DNA of 64,000 nt, taken from IMG/VR virus record IMGVR_UViG_2913147268_000005, one strand, 5' to 3'. A program made the position numbers. Numbering within the stretch: position 1 is the stretch's first letter; each line of letters starts with the position of its first letter. Of this stretch, positions 55,401 through 61,400 are shown piece after piece. Source of the DNA: a virus (taxonomy: Duplodnaviria; Heunggongvirae; Uroviricota; Caudoviricetes).

Positions 55401-58400
55401 CAGGGTGTCGGGTTAAAAAATCCTGTTCAGCCGTCTGCGGGTCCGGTTGCGAAGCGTCCGGACAAGAAGATCTTTTATCTGACGGATCAGGTTTTAATAC
55501 TGACGGATCGGGGTCAATCATCGGCCCCCTAATCGGCAGTTTTTTATCAACAGTTGATCCATCAAAATTTGACGGGTCAACCGTTGAGGGGTCAATATTT
55601 GACGGGTCAACTGTTAACGGGTCATTTTTTGCCGGGCTAATTTTTCTTTTCGGTTTATATGACTCACGCGCCGCCGCCGCAGCTGCTTCGAGTTTTTCCA
55701 CATTAAGCCGATAGATATTGCTTACATTACGCCCACCGACCTTACGCTCTTCCTTCGTCAGCCAGCCCTCTTTCGCCAGTTCTGCAATAGCCGATTTCAC
55801 TGTGGATTCACTTCTTGCACCGATCTGACGCCGGATAGTTTCAATGGCAGGCCATGACACGCCCTCGTCATTGCTGTAGTCTGCAAGACGGGCCATAACC
55901 GCCACCCTGGATAAGATCATGCCGGTGAAGGCGCACCCTTCCCAGACAAGACCATGAAGCTTGCTGCTCATAAAACCCCCGAACACCGTGCTTTTAGTGC
56001 ATCACCACAGCATTCCCTGCCGGGCCGCCGCGATTCATCTGGTCATACAAAACAACCGCTGACGCAACAAAATCATCGACATCCTTCACCAGCCGATCCC
56101 GCCGTTCGACGATCTCACGGTAATATTCAGAACTGTGGCTGCGCATACGGGCCACCAGCAAAGGCGGCATCGCCTTTTCGATCGCCGGTAACAGAGCCTG
56201 CATTTTTTCAACAGCATCAGGGGTGTCTTTATCCAGCCAACGGAAAATTTTCTGGGTATTACGGGCCAGGGCTTCCGGATGGCTGTCGTCATACAGTTCC
56301 GGGAACGTCATTCCCAGCTCGAAATACGCTTTGGTAATTTTCGCAGCCGGCACTTTTTCGCCGTCCGGATGCGCCCAGGCATTCATCGCCATGCGGATGT
56401 GTTCATGCTTGATTTTCATGAATCATTCTTTCCTTCGTTCGAGGTGCTATCCTGCTTCTTGTAAAGTTCTGGGTTGTATTTCAATTCACCGTTAGTAATT
56501 TCATCCAGTTCCATTGCGCGAAGTTTGGGAATAACTGCTTTCCACCGCACAACAGCCACATGTGAAATTCCAAGAGCCTCAGCTACTAGTCGCTTTTTTT
56601 TGAAATAGCGCAGAACATCATCTTTGAACATAAAACTCTCCTGTTATTTCGAGCAGAAGGGTAACAATAGTTACATAACAATGTCAACCATAGCAACATC
56701 ACTTGGTAGTAACATTGGTTACATGAAAAACACTATCAGCGAACGTATTCGGAATCGTCGAAAAGACGTTGGATTAACCCAACAGCAGGTTGCGAAAGCA
56801 ATCGGCATATCTCGTGTATCCGTAACAAAATGGGAAAATGGCTCTTCAAAACCTGACGGTGAGAATTTGTATCTACTGTCAAAATTGCTTTCCAAATCTC
56901 CTGAATGGATTCTTTATGGAAAGGACGGTCACGATAAAACCGATGATCTGCGTCTGAATCAGTACCCTTACATTAGTGACAACATCGCCCGGTTGCCCGT
57001 TTTAACGTGGGAACAGGCTGGTTATTGGGATATGAGTTGTCCAGTAACCAAGATTCCTGGTATTAAGAACTGGGTTGATGTCATGACAAAAACCGCTGAA
57101 AACTCTTTTTTATTGCATGTTGAGGGAGATGCGATGACAAACTCTAACGGCCTCCCAACCATCCCCGACGGATCTACCGTGCTGATCACACCATGCTCAA
57201 GTAACATTAGAGAACTGGTGGGAAAAATAATCTTAATCCAATTGGAAGGAACGCCAAACGTAACACTAAAAAAAGTTGCGATTGACGGACCAAACATCTA
57301 TCTGTTGTCACTGAATCCGCTTTACAAACCCATCGAACTGAATGGTGGTTACACCATTAAAGGTAAAGTTTCACAAATACATCAATACTTAGACTGAGTC
57401 AGAACCCGCATTCATTGCGGGTTTTTTATGCCCTCAAATGTACCTTTTGCAACATTGCATTGACTCGAAAGGTAACTCTTGTTACCTTAACAACATACCA
57501 ACCCACCCCGCCCCACAGAACGCCGGGCAATACTTCGAGTTACCAAGCAGTGGTCAGGGGGTAAGTAGCCAGCCCGAGGCGTAAGAACATGACGGCAGGG
57601 TTCAACTTTAATAACTATGCAGCAGGTTTTTGTTCCGCTCCCCCGGCGTTAAGGGGAAATGAGGTCAGCATGGATACTATCGATCTTGGCAACAGCGAAT
57701 CTCTGGTATGTGGCGTGTTCCCCAACCAGGACGGCACGTTCACCGCAATGACGTATACCAAAAGCAAAACGTTTAAAACCGAAAATGGTGCCCGTCGCTG
57801 GCTGGAAAGAAACTCAGGTGAGTGATATGGATTTCGACACAATCATGGAAAAGGCTTACGAAGAATACTTCGAAGGCCTTGCCGAAGGCGAAGAAGCTCT
57901 CAGCTTCAGTGAGTTTAAACAGGCGCTTTCCAGCTCGGCAAAATCTAACGGCTGATAAGCGAAGCAGCACCGCGAGGAATCAGTATGCAGAAACGAGAAC
58001 CCGTCATCATCGCGCCAGACTATACCGATGATGAACTTTATGAGTGGATGCGCCAGAAAATTAATGCAGCGCAGGATCTGAAATGGGCCAATGAAGCCAG
58101 GACTAAGCAGGCTGAAAATCTGTCCGCTCTGGAGCAGGATATCACCAGGCTGGAAAAAGCAGCGGCATTAAGCATTGCCAGAATGGTTACATACCCGCGT
58201 TAATAGCTAACCAACGAAGCTAAGGTTGGTAATTAAGGAGTTCTCCACGGGTCAGGTGGAGTGCGTGCGCCGGACACGGGTGAACATCCGGCACTGACAG
58301 TTTACTGAAAGGATATGTCCCTGAAAAGTCAGGGCATAAAGCGAAAGCGCACGGCGAAATTGGTCTCTCTGTACGGTGTCGTTAAATTTAGTTCGACCGT

Positions 58401-61400
58401 GCGCTTCCGGTTGTGGCACTCCGCGAAATGGCGCGGCGGTAAGTATGGCGGGGTTATTCCTTCCTCCGTTGAGGACACCGGGTTGTCAGGTTGACCATAC
58501 GCTTAAGTGACAACTCCGCTGCAACGCCCTCTGTTATCAATTTTCTGGTGACGTTTGGCGGTATCAGTTTTACTCCGTGACTGCTCTGCCGCCCTTTTTA
58601 AAGTGAATTTTGTGATGTGGTGAATGCGGCTGAGCGCACGCGGAACAGTTAAAACCAAAAACAGTGTTATGGGTGGATTCTCTGTATCCGGCGTTAATTG
58701 TTAACTGGTTAACGTCACCTGGAGGCACCAGGCACCGCATCACAAAATTCATTGTTGAGGACGCGATAATGGAAACGTTATTACCAAACGTTAATACGTC
58801 TGAAGGTTGTTTTGAAATTGGTGTCAATATCAGTAACCCTGTATTTACTGAAGATGCCATTAACAAGAGAAAACACGAACGGGAGCTATTAAATAAAATA
58901 TGCATTCTTTCAATGCTGGCCCGTTTACGTCCGATACAAAAAGGATGCTGGCAATGAATACAGCATTTGCACTTGTTCTGACAGTTTTTCTTGTTTCCGG
59001 AGAGCCAGTTGATATTGCAGTCAGTGTTCACAGGACAATGCAGGAGTGTGTGACTGCAGCAACCGAACAGAAAATTCCCGGTAACTGTTACCCGGTCGAT
59101 AAAGTTATTCACCAGGATAATAACGAAATCCCGGCAGGTCTTTAAAACAGTTCCGTAATAAATATCCGGTTTCATTCTTATATGCCAGCAATGGCAGGGA
59201 TTTGTTCACCCTTAAATCTGTAATGAGGTAAAANNNNNNNNNNNNNNNNNNNNNNNNNNNNNNNNNNNNNNNNNNNNNNNNNNNNNNNNNNNNNNNNNNN
59301 NNNNNNNNNNNNNNNNNNNNNNNNNNNNNNNNNNNNNNNNNNNNNNNNNNNNNNNNNNNNNNNNNNNNNNNNNNNNNNNNNNNNNNNNNNNNNNNNNNNN
59401 NNNNNNNNNNNNNNNNNNNNNNNNNNNNNNNNNNNNNNNNNNNNNNNNNNNNNNNNNNNNNNNNNNNNNNNGTCTGCTTCCTTTGTCCCGGTTGAGACTG
59501 AATCCGATCCGATGAACGTCACTTTTGACAAGCTGGCCCCTGAAGTACAGAACGCTGTCATGGTTAAGTTCGACACATGTGAAAACATCACCGTTGATAT
59601 GGTTATTAGCGCACAGGAATTGTTGCAGGAAGACATGGCAACATTCGACGGACATATCGTTGAAGCGTTGATGAAAATGCCAGAAGTTAACGCCATGTAT
59701 CCGGAGCTTAAGCTGCATGCCATCGGGTGGGTTAAGCATAAATGTAAGCCTGGTGCCAAATGGCCCGAAATTCAGGCAGAGATGCGCATCTGGAAAAAAC
59801 GTCGTGAAGGTGAACGCAAGGAAACCGGAAAATACACGTCTGTTGTTGATCTCGCCCGCGCCAGAGCCAATCAACAGTACACTGAAAATTCAACAGGAAA
59901 AATCAGCCCGGTCATTGCTGCCATTCATCGCGAATACAAGCAGACATGGAAAACACTGGATGACGAACTGGCCTACGCTCTCTGGCCTGGTGATGTGGAT
60001 GCCGGAAACATTGACGGCAGCATCCATCGCTGGGCAAAAAATGAAGTTATCGACAACGACCGCGAAGACTGGAAGCGTATCTCGGCATCAATGCGCAAAC
60101 AGCCTGATGCCCTTCGCTACGACCGCCAGACTATTTTTGGCCTTGTCCGTGAACGTCCGATCGACATTCACAAAGACCCTGTGGCACTGAACAAATACAT
60201 TACTGAATACCTGACTACAAAGGGCGTGTTTGAAGATGAAGGAAGAAATCAGAGCGCAACTGATACTCTCTCGTCGCCAGTACCAGAAACTGATGCAGTG
60301 GAAACGGCAATTCCGGACAACGAAAAAACCGAATGCAAAGTGGAAGTCGAACCATCTGTAGAGCGTGAGGGGCCGTTCTACTTCCTCTTCACCGACAAGG
60401 ATGGCGAAAAATACGGTCGCGCAAACAAACTTTCTGGTCTGGATAAGGCGCTGGCTGCCGGGGCAACTGAAATCACGAAAGAAGAATATTTTGCCCGCAA
60501 AAACGGCACATACACAGGTTCACAACAAAATACTGATGCATCTGACACGACCGCACAACCAGACCTGGTAAAAGTTACCGCTGACGAAGTAAACAAAATT
60601 ATGCAGGCAGCCAGTATCAGCCAGCCTGACGCTAATAAGTTGCTCGCTGCATCACGTGGTGAATTTGTTGAAGGGATTAGCGACCCGAATGATCCGAAAT
60701 GGGTGAAGGGGATTGAAACCCGCGATTCTGTGCACCAGAACCAGTCAGAAACGGAACAGTACGACCAAAAAGCGGAACAAAACAGCCAAAATGCGTTACA
60801 AAACGAGCCAGAAACGAAACAACCTGAACCAGTCGTGCAACAGGAAGAGGAAAAAGTTTGTACCGCATGCAATCAGACTGGTGGTGGTAACTGCCCTGAT
60901 TGTGGCGCAGTGATGGGTGACGCAACCTACCAGGAGACATTCAACGAAGAAAGCCAGGATGAAGCCCGGGAAAAAGATCCAGAGGAAATAGAAAATGCCG
61001 GACTCCCGAACAAGGAGTGCACCGAAGGCGATCAACATGCCAATGACAATAATGAAATAGGCGAGACAGCAAATCCCTTAATTAAGGTGAACAGTCATCG
61101 TAAAAGCACATCCACCAGCAGGTTGTGGCACCATCTGATGATTGACCTTGAAACCATGGGAAAAAATCCTGATGCCCCGATTATCTCAATAGATGCAATA
61201 TTTTTCGATCCGCAAACCGGAGATATGGGACCGGAATTTAGTAAGACTATCGATCTGGAAACTGCTGGCGGAGTCATTGATCGTGACGTCATTAAAAGGT
61301 GGCTGAAGCAATCACGTGAAGCGCAGTCTGCCATTATGACCGATGAAATCCCGTTAGATGATGCACTGTTACAATTGCGGGAATTTATCGACGAAAACTC

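What the first reader, a model, noticed from the sequence alone, without database searches (positions are those of the whole stretch)
57670..59145. Qin-type ydfA-ydfB-ydfC-dicF-dicB-ydfD cell-division-inhibition operon
The DicF sRNA sequence with its terminator T-run and the DicB ORF are present, together with flanking small genes including a 42-aa ydfB below typical ORF cutoffs. The module sits under control of the non-cleavable-looking repressor described above.
Basis: established knowledge. Interest (0 to 1): 0.4.

Follow-up and report, generated by a model that had tools for sequence, protein, structure and literature searches.

The report
Known prophage dicBF cell-division-inhibition operon
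This stretch is an intact copy of the well-studied prophage operon that makes the small RNA DicF and the small protein DicB, both of which block E. coli cell division; it is ordinary, found in most E. coli genomes, and differs from the K-12 textbook copy mainly in being wired to a different repressor.

Summary
Window 57670-59145 (+) holds ydfA, ydfB (42 aa), ydfC, dicF, dicB and ydfD in the K-12 Qin order. DicF (58542-58594) is 53/53 identical to K-12 dicF and scores 76.7 bits against Rfam RF00039. YdfB is 42/42 identical to K-12, YdfA 49/51, YdfC 69/72, DicB 54/62 and YdfD 59/63. The conserved stem in which the predicted RNase III-generated 5' end falls, the DicF terminator and the coding signatures of the small ORFs are intact.

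The prophage itself is not Qin. Homology to Qin starts only at 57632. The promoter, operators, repressor and cro belong to a different immunity module, and the prophage sits beside tRNA-Ser(CGA).

A 14-bp palindrome, GTAACN4GTTAC, occurs exactly three times in the window. Two copies lie between cro and the repressor gene. One overlaps the -10 of a PL-like promoter at 57460-57488. Sequence shared with other phages begins 5-6 nt after that -10, where a transcription start would be expected.

The repressor is lambda-CI-like, with the Ala-Gly site and the Lys kept but the catalytic Ser replaced by Ala.

DicF occurs in 3944 of 5426 complete E. coli genomes. This is already known biology and of low interest.

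The parts
56416..56631 (-). cro-like gene (71 aa) of the immunity module, transcribed divergently from the repressor gene
   Evidence: Pfam P22_Cro, E 2.9e-16. RefSeq annotates it as a Cro/CI family regulator. It is 29/76 identical to K-12 DicC.
56661..56722 (.). Two exact operator-like palindromes, GTAACAATAGTTAC (56661-56674) and GTAACATTGGTTAC (56709-56722), between cro and the repressor gene. The first overlaps the -10 (TACCCT) of a minus-strand TTGACA promoter for cro.
   Evidence: the window has only 3 exact matches, all within 56661-57485. With up to 1 mismatch there are 5 matches against 1.04 expected, and 0 of 100 shuffles reached 5. The promoter was read directly from the sequence.
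56681..57397 (+). Lambda-CI-like repressor (HTH_3 plus Peptidase_S24 domains). The Ala-Gly site (QAG) and the Lys (TLKKV) are kept, but the nucleophile Ser is replaced by Ala (GDAM, residue 151). The real start is probably Met15 at 56723.
   Evidence: Pfam. Alignment to lambda repressor 3bdn: VEGDAMT against VEGNSMT. Family alignment. All 18 copies of this immunity type carry GDAM.
57403..57427 (+). Intrinsic terminator of the repressor gene: a 10-bp predicted stem running into the T-run. It insulates the downstream operon from repressor-gene transcription.
   Evidence: Sequence. Fold of -15.1 kcal/mol. Weak Rfam Trp_leader terminator-like match.
57460..57488 (+). PL-like promoter of the operon: -35 TTGACT (57460-57465), 17-nt spacer, -10 TACCTT (57483-57488). 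The operator palindrome GTAACTCTTGTTAC (57472-57485) lies across the spacer and -10.
   Evidence: Comparative support comes: at least 9 unrelated promoter/operator types in other phages all join the shared sequence at 57494, 5-6 nt after this -10. The consensus scanner did not call this promoter because its -10 matches only 3 of 6 positions.
57494..57669 (+). 5' leader of the operon transcript. Positions 57494-57631 are shared with many phage copies but absent from K-12 Qin. Positions 57632-57669 are shared with Qin.
   Evidence: BLAST breakpoints. Alignment to K-12. No significant fold: z = +0.81.
57670..57825 (+). ydfA (51 aa, DUF1391)
   Evidence: 49/51 aa identical to K-12. Polymorphic sites by codon position: 4/7/11.
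57827..57955 (+). ydfB (42 aa)
   Evidence: RefSeq annotation. 42/42 aa identical to K-12. Polymorphic sites by codon position: 4/3/12, a coding signature.
57985..58203 (+). ydfC (72 aa)
   Evidence: 69/72 aa identical to K-12. Polymorphic sites by codon position: 9/8/12.
58345..58406 (+). Conserved stem-loop in the ydfC-dicF untranslated region: AAGCGCACGG (58345-58354) pairs with CCGTGCGCTT (58397-58406). The predicted 5' end of the 190-nt DicF precursor (about 58405), which RNase III generates in K-12, falls in its 3' arm. The apical loop occurs as two alleles.
   Evidence: Alignment of 23 distinct copies and folds. The K-12 processing pattern is from PMC10448788. The overlapping ORF 58315-58494 shows no codon-position bias: 15/12/12.
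58542..58599 (+). dicF: the 53-nt DicF sRNA (58542-58594) with its terminator hairpin and T-run (58595-58599)
   Evidence: Rfam RF00039, 76.7 bits. 53/53 identical to K-12 b1574. Fold of -15.9 kcal/mol.
58769..58957 (+). dicB (62 aa), with a GAGGA ribosome-binding site 5 nt upstream of the ATG
   Evidence: Pfam DicB, E 9.9e-37, full length. 54/62 aa identical to K-12. Polymorphic sites by codon position: 18/17/32.
58954..59145 (+). ydfD (63 aa, DUF1482). It overlaps the dicB stop by 4 nt (ATGA), which suggests translational coupling.
   Evidence: 59/63 aa identical to K-12. K-12 YdfD is a lysis protein (PMC8835842).
59183..59205 (+). Weak terminator-like hairpin after ydfD; a possible 3' end of the roughly 1.6-kb transcript
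   Evidence: Fold of -7.7 kcal/mol for the folded segment 59176-59210. In K-12 no transcript extending past ydfD was detected.

Best explanation
This is an intact copy of the dicBF operon (ydfA-ydfB-ydfC-dicF-dicB-ydfD). It occupies the early-left (PL) position of a lambdoid prophage integrated beside tRNA-Ser(CGA) in E. coli.

Proposed mechanism, by homology with the K-12 Qin operon:
1. In the lysogen, a lambda-CI-like repressor binds a 14-bp palindrome that overlaps the -10 of the promoter at 57460-57488, keeping the operon silent.
2. When repression is lost, a polycistronic RNA starts near 57494.
3. RNase III cuts in the conserved stem at 58345-58406, and RNase E then releases the 53-nt DicF. 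Its 3' end is made by its own terminator.
4. DicF, with Hfq, pairs with the ftsZ ribosome-binding site through its 3' part, and with xylR, pykA and manX mRNAs.
5. Read-through of the DicF terminator allows translation of DicB and YdfD. DicB recruits MinC to the septum and blocks Z-ring assembly, and also blocks ManYZ-dependent phage DNA entry. YdfD is a lysis protein.

Shown here: the presence, intactness, identity and conservation of all parts, and the operator/promoter geometry.

Inferred: repressor binding, the transcription start, RNA processing and all activities.

The repressor has Ala in place of the S24 nucleophile Ser, so derepression is predicted not to follow RecA-stimulated self-cleavage. 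The trigger is unknown.
For: - Rfam DicF hit above the gathering score.
- DicF 53/53 identical to K-12; operon 95.6% nucleotide identity to Qin from 57632.
- Pfam DUF1391, DicB and DUF1482 hits.
- RefSeq annotation of 100%-identical DNA.
- Third-codon-position excess of polymorphism in ydfA, ydfB, dicB and ydfD, and none in the spurious ORF 58315-58494.
- Conserved RNase III stem and DicF terminator.
- Three exact palindromes confined to the two regulatory regions.
- Homology with heteroimmune phages begins 5-6 nt after the proposed -10.
- Repressor alignment to lambda CI and relatives.
- Published mechanism for the K-12 operon: PMC10448788, PMC5069750, PMC6832061 and PMC8835842.
Against: - No expression or activity data exist for this copy.
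- The proposed -10 (TACCTT) matches the consensus at only 3 of 6 positions, and the consensus scanner did not call the promoter.
- DicB differs from K-12 at 8 of 62 residues. Four of these are clustered at the C-terminus (L55P, M56I, P57Q, A61W). Their effect is unknown.
- The host prophage looks defective: IS66/IS21 and psiAB DNA lies between Q and the lysis genes. A role in lytic growth may therefore no longer apply in this strain.
Confidence: 0.93

Rival explanations
1. The operon is present but is not controlled by the adjacent repressor. It would instead be constitutive at a low level, driven by another promoter, or repressed in trans by a DicA-type repressor from another resident prophage.
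For: The promoter's -10 is weak and the scanner did not call it. E. coli genomes often carry several dicF loci with different immunity types. One older study proposed a promoter just upstream of dicB (cited).
Against: The palindrome over the promoter is identical in its specified bases to the two in the cro/repressor intergenic region and occurs nowhere else in 64 kb. Each heteroimmune phage carries its own operator-like repeats at the same position, directly upstream of the shared leader. K-12 work found no internal promoter. The DicA operator sequence of Qin is absent here.
Confidence: 0.06
2. The cassette is an inert relic in this strain. It would be intact by sequence because it was acquired recently, but not under selection and without physiological effect.
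For: The carrying prophage appears disrupted by IS elements and lacks a second att copy in the window. The operon is silent under standard conditions in K-12.
Against: All five ORFs are intact. Polymorphism across 31 distinct copies is biased to third codon positions. DicF and its processing stem are the least variable segments, although loci were selected with a 20-base DicF pattern, which inflates this for part of DicF. The same 2.8-kb module is retained in 663 complete genomes and DicF in 3944 of 5426.
Confidence: 0.05
3. The main present-day role is host-beneficial (domesticated) rather than phage-lytic. A division brake and superinfection exclusion module would be kept under an SOS-blind repressor, instead of acting as a Kil-like early function of an inducible phage.
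For: The repressor lacks the Ser nucleophile in all 18 copies of this immunity type seen. The prophage is IS-disrupted. K-12 DicB protects against ManYZ-dependent phages (PMC6832061).
Against: The same cassette is carried by deposited phage genomes such as Tritos, mEp460 and HannyBb, in the PL position upstream of exo/xis/int. This fits an early lytic function. The two roles are not mutually exclusive.
Confidence: 0.3

Closest known systems
dicBF operon of cryptic prophage Qin, E. coli K-12 (ydfA-ydfB-ydfC-dicF-dicB-ydfD, b1571-b1576)
   Same: Same genes in the same order and spacing. DicF is 53/53 identical. YdfB is 42/42, YdfA 49/51, YdfC 69/72, YdfD 59/63 and DicB 54/62 aa identical. The RNase III stem, the DicF terminator and the dicB/ydfD 4-nt overlap are conserved.
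   Different: Homology begins only at 57632. Here the leader is about 138 nt longer, and the promoter/operator, repressor (238-aa CI-like with an S24 domain, against the 135-aa HTH-only DicA) and cro (38% identical to DicC) differ. No Rem antirepressor is present. The downstream exonuclease, xis and int genes are intact here, whereas K-12 has ydfE/intQ pseudogenes. The integration site is also different.
dicF-dicB cassettes of deposited lambdoid phage genomes (Escherichia phages Tritos, mEp460, HannyBb, vB_EcoS-689R5; PPompW / Stx2-converting phages)
   Same: 94-97% nucleotide identity from about 57490-57505 through ydfD, including the longer leader. They occupy the same position upstream of the exonuclease gene.
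   Different: None of the 59 phage records shares the window's immunity region at megablast level. Several have alternative ydfB/ydfC segments (mosaic breakpoints).
Lambda PL operon with kil (and Rac kilR): phage early-left operons that encode a host cell-division inhibitor under CI control
   Same: Same genomic logic. The repressor gene is followed by an operator-covered leftward early promoter, then small early genes including an FtsZ-ring inhibitor, then exo/xis/int (PMC3961180 listed).
   Different: DicB, DicF and Kil share no sequence relationship. No N-type antiterminator gene is evident in this operon, and the DicF sRNA has no lambda counterpart.
Lambda CI / LexA self-cleaving S24 repressors
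   Same: HTH plus S24 architecture. The Ala-Gly site and catalytic Lys align.
   Different: The nucleophile Ser is Ala (GDAM). From established knowledge (my recollection, not checked here), substitution of this nucleophile Ser by Ala in LexA (S119A) abolishes cleavage, and the equivalent change in lambda CI (Ser149) is expected to do the same.

Membership tests
DicF RNA (Rfam RF00039) | Covariance-model score at or above the curated gathering score over the full model | tested here: met
   76.7 bits against 48, model positions 1-52 of 52, E 3.6e-15.
DicF RNA (Rfam RF00039) | Sequence of the 5' (xylR/pykA) and 3' (ftsZ) pairing regions as in K-12 DicF | tested here: met
   53/53 identical to b1574. 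The pairing regions are as defined in PMC5069750. The target mRNAs are not in the window.
DicF RNA (Rfam RF00039) | Rho-independent terminator hairpin plus U-run forming the 3' end | tested here: met
   Hairpin within 58557-58593 and TTTTT at 58595-58599; -15.9 kcal/mol.
DicF RNA (Rfam RF00039) | [quoted passage not shown] | not testable with these tools
   Only the substrate could be examined. The stem 58345-58354/58397-58406 is conserved in 23 distinct copies, and the predicted 190-nt 5' end falls inside it.
DicB protein (Pfam PF05358) | Full-length match above the gathering score; about 62 aa | tested here: met
   124.9 bits against 27, residues 1-62 of 62. 87% identical to K-12 DicB.
DicB protein (Pfam PF05358) | MinC/ZipA-dependent division block and ManYZ inhibition | not testable with these tools
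   Activity is known only for the K-12 allele. This allele has 8 substitutions.
dicBF operon (Qin type) | Gene order ydfA-ydfB-ydfC-dicF-dicB-ydfD on one strand with a long untranslated region around dicF | tested here: met
dicBF operon (Qin type) | Promoter dicBp repressed by DicA, with DicC as the Cro analogue and Rem as the antirepressor | tested here: not met
   The promoter/operator DNA is unrelated to Qin upstream of 57632. The repressor is a 238-aa CI-like protein that matches DicA only over the HTH region (56 identical positions in a 239-column global alignment; tblastn gives 54% identity over residues 18-87), and cro is 38% identical to DicC. There is no Rem homologue in the window.
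Prophage Qin | Same element: same integration site, immunity region and gene content | tested here: not met
   It is integrated beside tRNA-Ser(CGA)/mtfA. The immunity module differs. The replication-to-exonuclease segment (window about 48558-61722) is 99.9% identical to an ST131 prophage at ompW, not to Qin.
Self-cleaving S24 repressors (LexA / lambda CI) | Ala-Gly cleavage site | tested here: met
   EQAGYW aligns with lambda VQAGMF.
Self-cleaving S24 repressors (LexA / lambda CI) | Ser nucleophile and Lys general base | tested here: not met
   Lys is present (TLKKV against TFKKL), but the Ser is Ala: VEGDAMT against VEGNSMT. Ala is fixed in 18 of 18 copies of this immunity type.

The most novel reading that the evidence does not exclude
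In this immunity type, the toxic dicBF cassette, and with it the prophage's early-left operon, is wired to a CI-like repressor. That repressor keeps the Ala-Gly site and catalytic Lys but has lost the Ser nucleophile. No Rem-type antirepressor is present in the window.

The Ala state occurs in relatives at 98%, 88% and 68% identity. Relatives at 87% and 65% identity keep Ser. The loss may therefore have arisen more than once. That would point to recurrent selection for uncoupling a division-inhibition and phage-exclusion module from the SOS response, which would be a route of prophage domestication.
Probability: 0.2. Interest if true: 0.35.

Novelty: already known. Interest (0 to 1): 0.1.

Why it matters
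It matters little beyond correct annotation. The dicBF operon, its mechanism and its spread across E. coli prophages in varied contexts are already published (PMC5069750, PMC10448788, PMC6832061).

The modestly useful points are:
- RefSeq does not annotate dicF in the matching genomes: the features under the DicF match are 'none'.
- The cassette is shown to join at least 9 different promoter/operator types at one junction. That junction is consistent with the transcription start.
- In this common ST131-associated immunity type, the controlling repressor is predicted to be blind to SOS. This would affect when DicF and DicB are made in a clinically important lineage.

Tried and rejected
- **Structured leader.** I asked whether the 138-nt leader segment absent from Qin (57494-57631) is a structured antitermination RNA like HK022 put. 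The fold is no better than shuffles (z = +0.81), and there is no Rfam hit even at E up to 5. The idea was dropped and the segment remains unexplained.
- **Rem antirepressor.** The 90-aa ORF next to hokD (51350-51622) has no similarity to Rem. A tblastn of Rem against the window gave nothing meaningful (best E 0.85).
- **Other antirepressors.** Pfam scans of 20 further ORFs found no Ant/KilAC/BRO/Rha antirepressor. Not every small ORF was scanned.
- **A coding ORF in the spacer.** ORF 58315-58494 (59 aa) in the ydfC-dicF spacer has no Pfam hit and no codon-position bias (15/12/12). It is non-coding.
- **N-terminally extended ORFs.** The longer ydfA (from 57589) and dicB (from 58664) are not supported. 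Qin homology starts downstream of 57589, and good ribosome-binding sites precede the annotated starts.
- **Second attachment-site copy.** No repeat of 14 nt or more from the tRNA-Ser region occurs elsewhere in the window.
- **Literature on Ser-less CI repressors.** One full-text search found nothing relevant.
- **Failed scripts.** Two early scripts failed because the K-12 locus had not yet reached the sandbox. One paper search was rejected for syntax.

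
Full report
**Observation**

The region was read and its ORFs listed. 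A scan of the whole window against Rfam at gathering thresholds gave three hits. One is DicF (RF00039) at 58543-58594 on the + strand, at 76.7 bits against a threshold of 48, covering the full model.

A megablast of 56400-59230 against 5,426 complete E. coli genomes found 100% identical DNA in many ST131 and other chromosomes. RefSeq annotates that DNA as follows:

| Feature | Window coordinates |
|---|---|
| Cro/CI regulator | 56416-56631, minus strand |
| LexA-family protein | 56681-57397 |
| DUF1391 protein (ydfA) | 57670-57825 |
| ydfB | 57827-57955 |
| ydfC | 57985-58203 |
| dicB | 58769-58957 |
| ydfD | 58954-59145 |

An exonuclease, an excisionase and an integrase follow. Pfam confirms DUF1391, DicB (124.9 bits, full length) and DUF1482. 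The finding's start and end are exactly the ydfA start and the ydfD stop.

**Comparison with K-12**

The Qin region of MG1655 was fetched and aligned.

- The annotated 53-nt dicF corresponds to window 58542-58594 and is identical at all 53 positions.
- About 220 nt around it are also identical.
- YdfB is 42/42 identical, YdfA 49/51, YdfC 69/72, YdfD 59/63 and DicB 54/62.
- The DicB substitutions are K2E, T20N, Q36H, V47I, L55P, M56I, P57Q and A61W.

Homology to Qin starts only at 57632, 38 nt before the ydfA ATG. Everything upstream is unrelated or only distantly related to dicA/dicC.

**Evidence that the parts are functional**

A 20-base DicF pattern retrieved 120 IMG/VR loci. Thirty-one distinct full-length copies of 57632-59233, including the window, were aligned.

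| ORF | Polymorphic sites by codon position (1/2/3) |
|---|---|
| ydfB | 4/3/12 |
| ydfA | 4/7/11 |
| dicB | 18/17/32 |
| ydfD | 34/28/50 |
| ydfC | 9/8/12 (less clear) |
| 58315-58494 (mechanical ORF in the spacer) | 15/12/12 (no bias) |

DicF and the 137 nt before it are the least variable segments. Part of this is ascertainment, because the loci were selected with a DicF pattern.

A perfect 10-bp stem (58345-58354 with 58397-58406) is conserved in 23 distinct copies, while its apical loop occurs as two alleles. The 5' end of the 190-nt DicF species that RNase III generates in K-12 (PMC10448788) would fall at about 58405, inside this stem. The DicF hairpin plus U-run folds at -15.9 kcal/mol.

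**Regulation**

The palindrome GTAACN4GTTAC occurs exactly three times in 64 kb: at 56661, at 56709 and at 57472. With one mismatch allowed there are five matches against 1.04 expected, and no shuffle reached five.

- The first two copies lie between cro and the repressor gene.
- The 56661 site overlaps the -10 (TACCCT) of a minus-strand TTGACA promoter for cro.
- The third lies across the spacer and -10 of TTGACT(57460-57465)-17 nt-TACCTT(57483-57488).
- That promoter sits just downstream of a strong intrinsic terminator that ends the repressor gene (57403-57427, -15.1 kcal/mol).

The -10 is weak and the simple scanner did not call the promoter. Comparative data support it, however. When the junction is lined up across loci, at least nine unrelated upstream sequences all join the shared sequence CATACCAACCCACCCCGCCCC at window 57494, 5-6 nt after the proposed -10. 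Each upstream sequence has its own TTGAC-type -35 and its own repeated or palindromic motif. The immunity module therefore ends, and the shared cassette begins, where the transcription start would be expected. That is a typical lambdoid mosaic boundary.

The same analysis shows the cassette combined with several repressor types: this GDAM type in 18 loci, an SDSM S24 type in 10, a DDTM type in 2, and many short DicA-like HTH-only repressors. Further mosaic breakpoints lie inside ydfA/ydfB, at 58224-58342 and in dicB.

**The repressor**

It carries HTH_3 and Peptidase_S24 domains. Its best solved relative is the lambda repressor (3bdn). The alignment pairs QAG with lambda's Ala111-Gly112, TLKKV with the Lys192 motif, and VEGDAMT with VEGNSMT, so the Ser149 nucleophile is Ala.

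In a family alignment, most relatives keep GDSM or GESM. Relatives at 98%, 88% and 68% identity have GDAM, while those at 87% and 65% keep Ser. From established knowledge of LexA S119A (my recollection, not checked here), and by analogy for the equivalent lambda CI Ser149, this predicts no self-cleavage. That prediction is an inference.

The residues NIGYM are conserved even among relatives only 45% identical, and several relatives start at this Met. Because NIGY is the translation of the 56709 operator, the true start is probably Met15 (56723).

No Rem homologue was found in the window. Rem is the antirepressor of DicA in K-12. No antirepressor domain appeared in the 20 further ORFs scanned. 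The trigger for derepression is unknown.

**Mechanism**

By homology with the K-12 operon (PMC10448788, PMC5069750, PMC6832061, PMC8835842), the sequence of events would be:

1. Loss of repression gives a polycistronic RNA.
2. RNase III and RNase E release DicF.
3. DicF blocks ftsZ translation through its 3' part, and xylR/pykA through its 5' part.
4. Read-through of the DicF terminator yields DicB and YdfD. DicB causes MinC-dependent inhibition of the Z ring and blocks ManYZ-dependent phage entry. YdfD is a lysis protein and IspG inhibitor.

The position upstream of exo/xis/int makes this the counterpart of lambda's PL operon, with DicB and DicF in the role of Kil.

**Context**

The prophage is not Qin.

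- It abuts tRNA-Ser(CGA) at 63020-63109 and mtfA.
- Its replication-to-exonuclease segment (window about 48558-61722) is 99.9% identical to an ST131 prophage that sits at ompW in other strains.
- Its integrase end matches a different strain.
- Between the Q antiterminator (49094-49915) and the lysis and head genes lies about 15 kb of IS66/IS21 elements together with plasmid-type psiA/psiB.
- P2-like genes occupy 1-15.5 kb.
- No second att copy is present in the window.

The prophage is probably defective.

**Novelty**

DicF occurs in 3,944 of 5,426 complete E. coli genomes, with up to 7 copies. The whole immunity-plus-operon segment occurs in 663 genomes. Deposited phage genomes carry the cassette, and one record (Tritos) annotates DicF explicitly. 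The presence of dicBF in multiple prophage contexts was published in 2016 (PMC5069750).

The finding is correct and already known, and interest is low. The only mildly new angle is the Ser-less CI-type repressor that governs this common variant.

Noticed in passing
window 56681-57397 (residue 151; codon GCG within GGAGATGCGATGACA, about 57125-57139): The CI-like repressor keeps the Ala-Gly site and catalytic Lys but has Ala in place of the S24 nucleophile Ser (GDAM). The Ala is fixed in 18 of 18 copies of this immunity type. Relatives at 87% and 65% identity keep Ser, while relatives at 88% and 68% identity have Ala, so the loss may be recurrent.
   Followed up: partly
window 56681-56725: The annotated first 14 codons of the repressor overlap an exact operator palindrome (56709-56722). 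The residues 'NIGYM' are conserved among relatives only 45% identical, and several relatives start at that Met. The real start is probably 56723, possibly on a leaderless mRNA like lambda cI.
   Followed up: partly
window 33000-48650: About 15 kb of IS66, IS21 and rve-type transposase genes, plus plasmid-type psiB (36439-36876) and psiA (35723-36442, SOS-inhibition genes of conjugative plasmids), sit inside the prophage between the Q antiterminator and the lysis/head genes. A YagK/YfjJ-like gene lies at 40655-41260.
   Followed up: partly
window 1-15520: P2-like genes directly abut the lambdoid tape-measure gene (15903-19145, minus strand). They are a replication/nicking protein at 33-2222, a large terminase at 7349-9100 on the minus strand and a major head protein at 10115-11167. 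The lambdoid tail-tip and fibre genes seem to be missing or replaced.
   Followed up: partly
window 58592-58801: A sub-threshold but full-length Rfam match to the Salmonella sRNA candidate STnc100 (38.7 bits against a gathering score of 47, E 2e-6) covers the dicF-dicB spacer and the start of dicB. STnc100 may simply be the homologous 5' UTR of a dicB-like gene.
   Followed up: no
window 57494-57631: A 138-nt C-rich leader segment is shared by most phage copies of the cassette but absent from K-12 Qin. It has no significant predicted structure (z = +0.81), no Rfam match and no convincing ORF. Its function is unknown.
   Followed up: partly
window 58355-58396 and 57800-58342: The apical loop of the conserved stem in which the predicted RNase III-generated 5' end falls exists as two unrelated alleles: the window/L076 type and the Qin type. 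Recurrent mosaic breakpoints in other loci fall at 57801-57927, 58224-58342 and 58753/58873, which indicates frequent cassette shuffling inside the operon.
   Followed up: partly
window 59234-59471 (also 31806-32045, 33237-33246, 47406-47415): These are masked runs of N. The run at 59234-59471 hides the 5' end of the 3'-5' exonuclease gene (the intact counterpart of the K-12 pseudogene ydfE). In the identical ST131 DNA this stretch is 267 nt, against 238 N here.
   Followed up: yes
window 51790-52115 and 52183-52869: A hokD/sok type I toxin-antitoxin locus (Rfam sok, 120.5 bits, 51940-52115 on the minus strand) and a QueH-like epoxyqueuosine reductase gene lie in the prophage early-right region. 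A YdaT-family gene (55994-56419, minus strand) follows cro.
   Followed up: no
window 61739-63109: A DUF4224/xis-like gene (61739-61942) and a 341-aa integrase (61942-62967) abut tRNA-Ser(CGA) (63020-63109, minus strand), with mtfA beyond. The integrase end is from a different lineage than the rest of the prophage: the 99.9% match to ST131 DNA stops at about 61722.
   Followed up: partly
E. coli RefSeq genomes (hits H54-H58): RefSeq/PGAP records list no annotated feature under exact DicF matches, so dicF is generally unannotated in these genomes even though it is present in 73% of them.
   Followed up: no
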